From NCBI RefSeq assembly GCF_006345805.1, contig NW_021826312.1, positions 1 through 13,732 of the forward strand: 13,732 nt of DNA, read 5' to 3'. Position numbers: made by a program. Each line of letters starts with the position of its first letter. Positions within the stretch are counted from its first letter, which is position 1. This stretch comes from Octopus sinensis (lineage: Eukaryota). This document shows, piece by piece, positions 1-4,734 of the stretch.

Positions 1-3000
1 CTCCTGCGAAACACAAACACCGTGGGCTTCCATGCAGTTTCTATCCAACAAATTCTTTTAGAAGGCATTGATAGTTCTGGGCCCTAAGTAGAAGACATAC
101 CTGGGGTGCTGGGCAGTAGGACTGAACCTGGAACCATGGAGTTGGTAAGCAAGCTACTTACCACACAGCCACTCCTGCGAAACACAAACACACCGTGTGC
201 TTCCATGCAGTTTCTATCCAACAAATTCTTTTAGAAGGCATTGATAGTTCTGGGCCCTAAGTAGAAGACATACCTGGGGTGCTGGGCAGTAGGACTGAAC
301 CCGGAACCATGGGGTTGGTAAGCAAGCTACTTACCACACAGCCACTCCTGCGAAACACAAACACACCGTGGGCTTCCATGCAGTTTCCATCCAACAAATT
401 CTTTTAGAAGGCATTGATAGTTCTGGGCCCTAAGTAGAAGACATACCTGGGGTGCTGGGCAGTAGGACTGAACCTGGAACCATGGGGTTGGTAAGCAAGC
501 TACTTACCACACAGCCACTCCTGCGAAAAACAAACACACGTGGGCTTCCATGCAGTTTCCATCCAACAAATTCTTTTAGAAGGCATTGATAGTCTGGGCC
601 CTAAGTAGAAGACATACTGGGGTGCTGGGAGTAGGACTGAACCTGGAACCATGGAGTTGGTAAGCAAGCTACTTACCACACAGCCACTCCTGCGAAACAC
701 AAACACACCGTGGGCTTCCATGCAGTTTTCCATCCAACAAATTCTTTTAGAAGGCATTGATAGTTCTGGGCCCTAAGTAGAAGACATACCTGGGGTGCTG
801 GGCAGTAGGACTGAACATGGAACCATGGGGTTGGTAAACAAGCTACTTACCACACAGCCACTCCTGCGAAACACAAACACACCGTGGGCTTCCATACAGT
901 TTCCATCCAACAAATTCTTTTAGAAGGCATTGATAGTTCTGGGCCCTAAGTAGAAGACATACTTGGGGTGCTGGGCAGTGGAACTGAACCTGGAACCATG
1001 GGGTTGCAAAGTGAGCTTCCTAACCACTTGATTATATTTCTTTTCCCCATATACTTCATTTCCTTTGTCCTCTTAGCATATTCTCCAAGACTAGTGCCAT
1101 GCATCAAAGCAATTTCGAGTTTTCAAGACTAACTTCAGAACAAATGGCGCCGACACATTTATTATATTCTTTTAAACAAACAAGTGAAGCTACATTCAAA
1201 TTTATGTTTATACATACATACGTACACATACCTATATATATATATATATACATATGTCCATAGACACACACACATATACGCACATATATACATACATACA
1301 CATTCCTATATATATATACATATGTCCATAGACACACACACATATACGTACATATATACATACATACACATTCCTATATATATATACATATGTCCATAGA
1401 CACACACACATATACGTACATATATACATACATACACATTCCTATATATATATATACATATGTCCATAGACACACACACACATATAAGTACATATATACA
1501 TACATACACATTCCTATATATATATACATATGTCCATAGACACACACACATATACGTACATATATACATACGTACACATTCCTATATATATATACATATG
1601 TCCATAGACACACACACATATACGTACATATAATACATACACATTATACATATATATATATATACATATGTCCATAGACACACACATATACGTACATATA
1701 TACATACATACACATTCCTATATATATATACATATGTCCATAGACACACACACATATACGTACATATATACATACATACACATTCCTATATATATAACAT
1801 ATGTCCATAGACACACACACATATACGTACATATATACATACATACACATTCCTATATATATATACATATGTCCATAGACACACACACATATACGTACAT
1901 ATATACATATGTACACATACCTATATATATATATACATATGTCCATAGACACACACACATATACGTACATATATACATACATACACATTCCTATATATAT
2001 ATACATATGTCCATAGACACACACACATATACGTACATATATACATACATACACATTCTTATATATATACATATGTCCATAGACACACACACATATACGT
2101 ACATATATACATACGTACACATTCCTATATATATATACATATGTCCATAGACACACACACATATACGTACATATATACATACGTACACATTCCTATATAT
2201 ATATATACTATGTCCATAGACACACACACATATACGTACATATATACATACATACACATTCCTATATATATATATATGTCCATAGACACACACACATAAC
2301 GTACATATATACATACATACACATTCCTATATATATATACATATGTCCATAGACACACACACATATACGTACATATATACATACATACACATTCTATATT
2401 ATATATACATATGTCCATAGACACACACACATATACGTACATATATACATACACACATTCCTATATATATATACATATGTCCATAGACACACACACATAT
2501 ACGTACATATATACATACATACACATTCCTATATATATATACATATGTCCATAGACAACACACACATATAAGTACATATATACATACATCACATTCCTAT
2601 ATATATATACATATGTCCATAGACACACACACATATACGTACATATATACATACGTACACATTCCTATATATATATACATATGTCCATAGACACACACAC
2701 ATATACGTACATATATACATACATACACATTCCTATATATATACACTATGTCCATAGACACACACACATATACGTACATATATACATACATACACATTCC
2801 TATATATATATACATATGTCCATAGACACACACACATATACGTACATATATACATACATACACATTCCTATATATATATACATATGTCCATAGACACACA
2901 CACATATACGTACATATATACATACATACACATTCCTATATATATATACATATGTCCATAGACACACACACATATACGTACATATTACATACGTACACAT

Positions 3001-4734
3001 TCCTATATATATATACATATGTCCATAGACACACACACATATACGTACATATATACATACATACACATTCCTATATATATATATATACATATGTCCATAG
3101 ACACACACCACATATACGTACATATATACATACATACACATTCCTATATATATATATATGTCCATAGACACACAACATATACGTACATATCACATACGTA
3201 CACATTCCTATATATATATACATATGTCCATAGACCACACACATATACGTACATATATACATACGTACACATTCCTATATATATTACATATGTCCATAGA
3301 CACACACACATATACGTACATATATACATACATACACATTCCTATATATATATACATATGTCCATAGACACACACACATATACGTACATATATACATACA
3401 TACACATTCCTATATATATATACATATGTCCATAGACACACACACATATACGTACATATAACATACATACACATTCCTATATATATATACATATGTCCAT
3501 AGACACACACACATATACGTACATATATACATACATACACATTCCTATATATATATACATATGTCCATAGACACACACACATATACGTACATATTACATA
3601 CATACACAACACATCCTATATATATACATATGTCCATAGACACACACACACATATAAGTACATATATACATACATACACATTCCTATATATATATACATA
3701 TGTCCATAGACACACACACATATACGTACATATATACATACGTACACATTCCTATATATATATACATATGTCCATAGACACACACACATATACGTACATA
3801 TATACATACATACACATTCCTATATATATATACATATGTCCATAGACACACACACATATACGTACATATATACATACATACACATTCCTATATATATATA
3901 CATATGTCCATAGACACACAACACATATACGTACATATATACATACATACACATTCCTATATATATATACATATGTCCATAGACACACACACATATACGT
4001 ACATATATACATACATACACATTCCTATATATATATACATATGTCCATAGACACACACACATATACGTACATATATACATACGTACACATTCCTATATAT
4101 ATATACATATGTCCATAGACACACACACATATACGTACATATATACATACATACACATTCCTATATATATATATACATATGTCCATAGACACACACACAT
4201 ATACGTACATATATACATACATACACATTCCTATATATATATACATATGTCCATAGACACACACACATATACGTACATATATACATACGTACACATTCCT
4301 ATATATATATACATATGTCCATAGACACACACACATATACGTACATATATACATACATACATATTCCTATAGATATATACATATGTACATAGACACACAC
4401 ACATATACGTACATATATACATACGTACACATACCTATATATATATATACATATGTCCATAGACACACACACATATACGTACATATATACATACAGACAC
4501 ATTCCTATATATATATACATATGTCCATAGACACACACACATATACGTACATATATACATACATACACATTCCTATATATATATACATATGTACATAGAC
4601 ACACACACATATACGTACATATATACATACATACACATTCCTATATATATATACATATGTACATAGACACACACATACGTACATACATACACACACATAC
4701 GTACCTAAATACATACACACACATATGTACATAG

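What the first reader, a model, noticed from the sequence alone, without database searches (positions are those of the whole stretch)
1251..4450. 16-monomer (~1085 bp) higher-order repeat hidden in the 68-bp minisatellite
Seen, by numbering monomers from 1251: the TATAAGTA variant is in monomers 4, 20 and 36 (starts 1457, 2542, 3627; spacing 1085 and 1085). The CATACGTACAC variant is in monomers 5/21/37 (1527, 2610, 3697), 10/26/42 (1866 as TGT, 2949, 4038), 13/29/45 (2070, ~3155, 4244) and 14/30 (2138, 3221). All fit positions 4, 5, 10, 13 and 14 modulo 16; the pattern breaks at monomer 46. Known: higher-order organisation is a hallmark of satellites such as primate alpha satellite. Inference: three tiers of amplification (dinucleotide, 68-mer, 16-mer block) in a microsatellite-derived array.
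Basis: seen in the sequence. Interest (0 to 1): 0.7.

Follow-up and report, generated by a model that had tools for sequence, protein, structure and literature searches.

The report
Block duplication inside a 68-bp minisatellite
A 3.4-kb array of 68-bp repeats really does carry a pattern of variant repeats that recurs every 16 units, but this is an ordinary local duplication of a block of repeats, not a satellite-style higher-order repeat of special interest.

Summary
The 68-bp array runs 1239-4689 (50.7 copies). The two marker variants fill 14 of the 15 cells expected at positions 4, 5, 10, 13 and 14 of a 16-monomer period. They occur in only 1 of the other 35 monomers, m47. Nine variant pairs lie at lag 16. 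None of 200,000 shuffles reached this at lag 16, and about 1 in 10,000 reached it at any lag from 1 to 25.

The periodicity is shallow. Marker monomers differ from the consensus by 1-3 bases, and 11 of the 16 positions carry the plain consensus type. Whole blocks are 96.1% identical in register against 94.0-95.8% out of register at lags 1-15, and an out-of-register lag (29) reaches 96.4%. Indels show no periodicity (p = 0.52). TRF with a maximum period of 2000 reports no ~1085-bp period. There are only about 2.6-2.8 periods.

The best reading is that a ~1.09-kb (16-unit) block was duplicated twice by out-of-register recombination or repair. This is known from minisatellite variant maps and from "local HORs" in plant satellites. 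Interest is low. Read support and genome-wide abundance could not be checked.

The parts
1239..4689 (.). 68-bp minisatellite array, 50.7 copies
   Evidence: TRF. 51 anchored monomers. 15 of the first 50 monomers are identical to the commonest form.
1210..1254 (.). Partial left-edge monomer (m0). It carries the CATACGTACAC variant, CATACC instead of CATTCC, and a longer TA run.
   Evidence: Read directly. The same combination occurs in m47, and in m10 with TG instead of CG.
1255..2343 (.). Period 1 (m1-m16). Markers: TATAAGTA in m4, G variant in m5, m13 and m14, TG form in m10.
2344..3426 (.). Period 2 (m17-m32). Markers: TATAAGTA in m20, G variant in m21, m26, m29 and m30.
3427..4315 (.). Period 3, incomplete (m33-m45). 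Markers: TATAAGTA in m36, G variant in m37, m42 and m45.
4316..4725 (.). Right-edge monomers m46-m51, which leave the pattern. m46 lacks the G variant and has 2 other substitutions. m47 has G + CATACC + extra TA + TGTACATAG. m50 and m51 have TGTACATAG, and m51 is strongly degenerate.
4726..4813 (.). Flanking compound microsatellite, (AC)14.5 followed by AT and ATAC runs, into which the array grades

Best explanation
This is a short, non-coding 68-bp minisatellite in which a block of 16 consecutive repeat units (~1.09 kb) has been duplicated in tandem twice. The block already carried two kinds of point variants at units 4, 5, 10, 13 and 14. The duplications left about 2.6-2.8 periods.

The most likely mechanism is out-of-register homologous exchange or repair within the array. 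Candidates are unequal sister-chromatid or interallelic crossing-over, or break-induced or synthesis-dependent repair that re-invades 16 units out of register. After the duplications the copies picked up private changes, for example a CpG to TpG change in m10.

Shown: the periodic variant map and its statistical support. Inferred: the mechanism and the order of events. No function is indicated. The array lies in SINE-rich, ORF-poor DNA.
For: - Marker variants occupy 14 of 15 expected cells and 1 of 35 others.
- There are 9 pairs at lag 16. None of 200,000 shuffles reached this at lag 16, and a fraction of 1e-4 did at any lag from 1 to 25.
- The TATAAGTA monomers share two linked changes, C>A plus an extra AC, in m4 and m36. 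m20 has the same C>A, and the same AC run one base shorter. This argues for copying rather than recurrent mutation.
- Substitutions are fewest at lag 16: 0.62 per monomer pair against 0.74-1.15 at the other lags from 1 to 25, with 0 of 20,000 shuffles reaching this.
- Exact k-mer sharing peaks at lags 16 and 32.
- The array edges carry divergent monomers (m0, m46-m51), as expected if exchange homogenises only the interior.
- Block duplications of several consecutive variants are reported for the human MSY1 and INS minisatellites and the mouse MMS24 minisatellite (passages read in PMC2674676, and PMC1929145).
- Local repeated patterns of monomers averaging ~4 monomers and ~3 occurrences within ~10 kb, attributed to out-of-register repair, are reported for maize and Arabidopsis satellites (passages read in PMC13011684).
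- No credible ORF lies in or near the array. The frames listed there are low-complexity translations.
Against: - Whole-block identity in register (96.1% at lags 16 and 32) is hardly above out-of-register values (94.0-95.8% at lags 1-15) and is exceeded at lag 29 (96.4%).
- At lag 32 the first block differs from the third by 15 substitutions, which is within the out-of-register range of 13-21.
- Indel events show no lag-16 signal (p = 0.52).
- TRF with a maximum period of 2000 does not report a ~1085-bp period.
- The third period stops at unit 13. A simple history of exact 16-unit duplications therefore needs an extra deletion, or replacement of units 14-16.
- m10 differs from its in-register partners m26 and m42 by three changes. 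It resembles m0 and m47 instead, which are off-period.
- The single-stranded DNA fold of three monomers is no more stable than shuffles (z = 0.62; 142 of 200 shuffles fold at least as well). Hairpin-driven slippage gets no support.
- No reads were available, so assembly fidelity is untested.
Confidence: 0.85

Rival explanations
1. Assembly artefact. The array, or its copy number, was mis-built from noisy long reads, so the three periods are an over-expansion or mis-consensus of fewer real blocks.
For: - The assembly shows local indel noise. Unit 4 of the neighbouring 173-bp array has four 1-bp deletions, while the other full units have 0-2.
- The 68-bp array has 22 singleton indel events, 14 of them of 1 bp, against 10 singleton substitutions.
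- These indels are dense in m1-m37 and sparse in m38-m50.
- They are not periodic (p = 0.52).
Against: - Random errors cannot create the same two substitution variants at the same five positions in three successive periods.
- The periods are not identical copies. m10 differs from m26 and m42 by three changes, and each period has its own private differences.
- A 3.4-kb array is short enough to be spanned by single long reads. This last point is general knowledge and was not tested here.
Confidence: 0.08
2. Chance or recurrent mutation. The G variant arises repeatedly, for example by copying from the similar ATACGTAC segment earlier in the same monomer, and only appears periodic.
For: - The G variant recreates a motif (TACGTAC) that is already present upstream in every monomer.
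- One G variant, m47, lies off the period.
Against: - None of 200,000 shuffles reached the observed pair count at lag 16, and a fraction of 1e-4 did at any lag from 1 to 25.
- The independent TATAAGTA + AC marker follows the same period.
Confidence: 0.01
3. A true satellite-type higher-order repeat. The 16-mer would be the homogenisation unit of an abundant, possibly centromere-associated satellite family, and this window would hold a small sample of it.
For: The ordered monomer pattern is repeated head to tail.
Against: - There are only about 2.6-2.8 periods in 3.4 kb, flanked on both sides by unique or SINE-like DNA.
- The monomer types are nearly identical.
- No other copy of the 68-mer occurs in the other ~10 kb of the window. 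There are only 62-86% low-complexity hits.
Confidence: 0.03

Closest known systems
Block duplications in minisatellite variant-repeat (MVR) maps, such as human MSY1 and INS and mouse MMS24
   Same: A tandem array of short units in which near-identical variant units are interspersed, and a run of several consecutive variants is repeated as a block. Passages read in PMC2674676 and PMC1929145.
   Different: The block here is long: 16 units, against for example the reduplicated 4-unit oTTT motif quoted for MMS24. It is present almost three times. Polymorphism among individuals, which defines those loci, could not be examined.
Local higher-order repeat patterns in plant satellites (maize CentC and knob180, Arabidopsis centromeres) and in Arabidopsis variant telomeric arrays
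   Same: Low-copy, locally confined repeated patterns of monomer subtypes, attributed to out-of-register repair or unequal crossing-over. Passages read in PMC13011684 and PMC11406999.
   Different: Those arrays are large satellites or telomere-adjacent arrays. This one is an isolated 3.4-kb interstitial minisatellite of microsatellite-like composition.
Primate alpha-satellite higher-order repeats
   Same: An ordered arrangement of monomers repeated head to tail, the definition read in PMC3975068.
   Different: Alpha-satellite HORs form multimegabase homogenised arrays with HOR copies about 99% identical (passages in PMC3975068, and PMC9859433). Their monomers are strongly diverged within the HOR. 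The figure of 20-40% is recalled, not seen in a call. Here the monomer types differ by 1-3 bases, the blocks are no more alike than the monomers overall, and there are fewer than 3 periods.

Membership tests
Minisatellite with multi-unit block duplication | Tandem array with a unit of roughly 10-100 bp | tested here: met
   68-bp unit, 50.7 copies, 95% matches
Minisatellite with multi-unit block duplication | Interspersed variant units that differ by a few bases | tested here: met
   G variant in 11 monomers, TG form in 1, TATAAGTA in 3, CATACC in 2
Minisatellite with multi-unit block duplication | A run of several consecutive variants occurs again in the same order | tested here: met
   14 of 15 expected cells are filled. 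None of 200,000 shuffles reached the pair count at lag 16.
Minisatellite with multi-unit block duplication | Length and structure polymorphism among individuals | not testable with these tools
   Only one sequence is available. There are no reads and no eukaryotic collection.
Higher-order repeat in the alpha-satellite sense | Ordered set of distinguishable monomers repeated head to tail | tested here: met
   Period of 16 monomers
Higher-order repeat in the alpha-satellite sense | Copies of the multimer are much more alike than the monomers within it | tested here: not met
   In-register identity is 96.1%, against 94.0-95.8% at lags 1-15 and 96.4% at lag 29. The monomer types differ by 1-3 of 68 bases, and 11 of 16 positions hold the same type.
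Higher-order repeat in the alpha-satellite sense | Long homogenised array of many multimer copies | tested here: not met
   About 2.6-2.8 periods in 3.4 kb
Higher-order repeat in the alpha-satellite sense | Association with the centromere or kinetochore | not testable with these tools
   No chromosomal position and no chromatin data are available.
Local HOR pattern (maize/Arabidopsis sense, PMC13011684) | A pattern of monomer subtypes recurs a few times within about 10 kb | tested here: met
   The pattern recurs at 1085-bp steps within 3.4 kb.

The most novel reading that the evidence does not exclude
The locus could be a snapshot of satellite birth. In this reading a compound microsatellite of the kind that follows the SINE-like repeats of this genome first became a 68-bp unit. 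It is now being amplified in 16-unit blocks, and the same 68-mer family with the same 16-unit register exists at many loci as an emerging satellite. Nothing here excludes it, because the source genome could not be searched.
Probability: 0.05. Interest if true: 0.45.

Novelty: new member of a known kind. Interest (0 to 1): 0.13.

Why it matters
It matters little on its own. It is a clean small example of how tandem arrays grow by out-of-register exchange of multi-unit blocks. The marker variants would make the locus a convenient variant-map marker, with block copy number varying among individuals, if the array is polymorphic. It also shows how long-read assemblies behave in low-complexity arrays: the substitution pattern is periodic while the indels are not. 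That split suggests the indels are assembly noise or fast slippage.

Tried and rejected
- TRF with a maximum period of 2000 on 1100-4900 gave no row with a period near 1085.
- Whole-block global alignment at every lag gave only a marginal in-register gain.
- An 8-unit sub-period was considered. Lag 8 has 5 G pairs, but all of them come from positions 5 and 13 of the 16-unit period. It is therefore one coincidence repeated, not independent evidence.
- I searched for other copies or a progenitor of the 68-mer in the rest of the window, using blastn of a monomer dimer against the window with the array masked. This returned only low-complexity hits of 62-86% identity, the best at 5602-5726 (70.9% over 127 nt), so no ancestry can be shown.
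- The single-strand DNA fold of three monomers is not more stable than shuffles (z = 0.62).
- ORF listing under the standard code found nothing credible.
- Rfam and ARAGORN found only one tRNA-Lys, far from the array.
- Literature searches for satellite or minisatellite work on cephalopods (listings only) showed nothing on such an array. The taxon is only my recollection, so this says little.
- Not done: a genome-wide search for the 68-mer. The open collections hold prokaryotes, phages, plasmids and E. coli only, and I did not use them.
- Not done: reads and the supplementary files of papers were not available.

Full report
**What is there.** The window has no N. It is AT-rich, repeat-rich eukaryotic DNA without credible ORFs. 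TRF finds a 68-bp tandem array at 1239-4689 with 50.7 copies, 95% matches and 2% indels. This is longer than the 1251-4450 of the finding. I split the array at the conserved anchor TGTCCATAGAC. The anchor gives 52 hits with up to 2 mismatches, at spacings of 66-72 bp, and so 51 monomers with m1 at 1255. I then aligned the monomers.

**Checking the observation.**
- TATAAGTA, together with an extra AC in the AC run, is in m4, m20 and m36. These start at 1461, 2546 and 3631, so the spacing is 1085 and 1085.
- CATACGTACAC (A>G at monomer position 42) is in m5, 13, 14, 21, 26, 29, 30, 37, 42, 45 and 47.
- m10 has the TG form.
- m47 carries a G variant off the period.

Under a 16-unit period with marked positions 4, 5, 10, 13 and 14, 14 of the 15 expected cells carry a marker. 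Only 1 of the other 35 monomers among m1-m50 does. For the G-variant positions the spacing is 1083-1089 bp rather than always 1085, because private indels change monomer lengths.

**Is it more than chance?** It is.
- Same-variant pairs number 9 at lag 16. The next best lag is 8, with 5 pairs. None of 200,000 random placements reached 9 at lag 16, and a fraction of 1e-4 reached 9 at any lag from 1 to 25.
- Using all substitutions rather than chosen markers, the mean difference per monomer pair is lowest at lag 16: 0.62, against 0.74-1.15 at the other lags from 1 to 25, with 0.78 at lag 32. None of 20,000 shuffles of monomer order reached this at lag 16, and the fraction was 3e-4 for the minimum over lags 1-25.
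- A count of shared exact k-mers that needs no segmentation also peaks at lags 16 and 32 for K=69 and K=100. At K=137 only lag 32 stands out.
- The 5 pairs at lag 8 all come from positions 5 and 13 of the 16-unit period, so they are one coincidence repeated and not a sub-period.

**How deep is the periodicity?** It is shallow.
- 15 of 50 monomers are identical to the commonest form, and 6 are identical G-type monomers. The marker types differ from the consensus by 1-3 bases, and 11 of the 16 positions hold the plain type.
- A global alignment of m1-16 with m17-32 gives 96.1% identity (9 substitutions, 34 gap columns). Lags 1-15 give 94.0-95.8% and 13-21 substitutions. Lag 32 gives 96.1% but 15 substitutions, and lag 29 gives 96.4%.
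- Indel events are not periodic: 1.26 per pair at lag 16, shuffle p = 0.52.
- TRF with a maximum period of 2000 reports no period near 1085.
- The periodic stretch runs from m4 at the latest to m45, which is 2.6-2.8 periods.

**Private differences and assembly quality.** Relative to the commonest monomer there are 13 singleton deletions, 9 singleton insertions and 10 singleton substitutions. Fourteen of the 22 indels are single bases. They are dense in m1-m37 and sparse in m38-m50. The neighbouring 173-bp array shows the same kind of local noise: its unit 4 has four 1-bp deletions, while the other full units have 0-2. I read these indels as assembly errors in low-complexity sequence or as fast slippage. 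The two cannot be told apart without reads. They do not create the periodic substitution pattern, and they explain why whole-block identity is uninformative.

**Most likely origin.** A block of 16 consecutive units that already carried the markers was duplicated twice by out-of-register homologous exchange or repair.
- The two linked changes in the TATAAGTA units (C>A plus an extra AC in m4 and m36, with m20 showing the same run one base shorter) speak for copying rather than recurrent mutation.
- m10's TG is what a CpG-to-TpG change of a G-type unit would give. This is inference.
- The edges hold divergent units. The partial m0 at about 1210-1254 and m47 share G + CATACC + an extra TA, and m46-m51 become increasingly degenerate. 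This is expected if exchange homogenises only the interior.

Two points do not fit a simple history. The third period ends at unit 13, so an extra deletion or replacement is needed. And m10 resembles m0 and m47, not its in-register partners m26 and m42. Three monomers folded as single-stranded DNA are no more stable than shuffles (z = 0.62), so hairpin-driven slippage gets no support.

**The 'three tiers' claim.** The 68-mer is cryptically simple. Each unit has purine/pyrimidine alternation runs of 40 and 19 nt. TRF also fits periods 4 (ATAC, 60% matches) and 10 (57%) over the same span. The array grades into (AC)14.5 and AT/ATAC runs at 4737-4813. This fits an origin from compound microsatellite sequence. 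The only matches to the monomer elsewhere in the window are low-complexity hits of 62-86% identity, so descent is not shown.

**Comparison with what is known.**
- Duplication of blocks of consecutive variants is reported in minisatellite variant maps: MSY1 and INS (passages in PMC2674676) and mouse MMS24 (passages in PMC1929145).
- Higher-order repeats are described in Arabidopsis variant telomeric arrays (passages in PMC11406999).
[quoted passage not shown] They are attributed to break-induced or out-of-register repair, with unequal crossing-over invoked for larger steps (passages in PMC13011684).
- Alpha-satellite HORs are ordered monomer sets repeated over megabases, with about 99% identical copies (passages in PMC3975068, and PMC9859433). 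That their monomers are 20-40% diverged is recalled, not read in a call.

The present array meets the ordered-pattern criterion. It fails the criteria of block-over-monomer similarity and of many homogenised copies. It is best filed as a block duplication, or local HOR, in a minisatellite.

**Surroundings.**
- Left of the array, after about 200 bp of unique sequence, lies a 173-bp tandem array (1-1006, 5.8 copies). Its unit aligns over its whole length with five dispersed SINE-like copies in the window (inverted matches of 93-96% over 67 nt).
- A tRNA-Lys(CTT) lies at 7556-7628 on the minus strand.
- From memory only, the dispersed repeats resemble those of octopus genomes. No call tested this.
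- I do not take the contig for human.

**What stayed unchecked.** Read support, copy number in other individuals and genome-wide abundance of the 68-mer were not examined.

**Verdict.** It is a known kind of structure and of low interest.

Noticed in passing
window 1-1006: A 173-bp tandem array (5.8 copies, 96% matches). Its unit is homologous over its full length to a SINE-like element that is present five more times in the window, so it is a tandemly amplified SINE-like unit.
   Followed up: partly
window 518-686, and 1255-3700 against 3769-4657: Uneven single-base indel noise. Unit 4 of the 173-bp array has four 1-bp deletions, while the other full units have 0-2. In the 68-bp array, private indels are dense in m1-m37 and sparse in m38-m50. 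This suggests local assembly or polishing weakness.
   Followed up: partly
window about 1210-1254, 1870-1939 (m10), 4384-4453 (m47): A third monomer type (CATACC instead of CATTCC, an extra TA, and the G or TG variant) sits at the left edge, at m10 and at m47. It does not follow the 16-unit period. It may be an old edge type, or a conversion tract.
   Followed up: partly
window 7556-7628 (-): A tRNA-Lys (anticodon CTT; Rfam tRNA 38.5 bits) lies directly between a SINE-like copy (7376-7552) and another dispersed repeat (7635-7819). That repeat has inverted copies at 9330-9514 and 10372-10557.
   Followed up: no
window 8084-9290: A direct duplication with a step of about 598 bp. Each copy holds an AT-rich segment with a short perfect hairpin (around 8195-8225 and 8785-8815) and a SINE-like copy (families D8, D11, D13, D14, D16 and D17).
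   Followed up: no
window 9650-10020 and 12000-12350: An inverted pair of a repeat that starts with a CAT/ATG trinucleotide run. The arms are 9733-9813 and 12179-12259, 88% complementary. The left copy contains a 62-bp internal tandem repeat at 9805-9956, 2.4 copies.
   Followed up: no
window 9150-9515 and 10192-10558: Two copies of a composite repeat of at least 360 bp (a SINE-like part, a GT-rich microsatellite and a second element), 1042 bp apart and about 92% identical (families D9 and D15).
   Followed up: no
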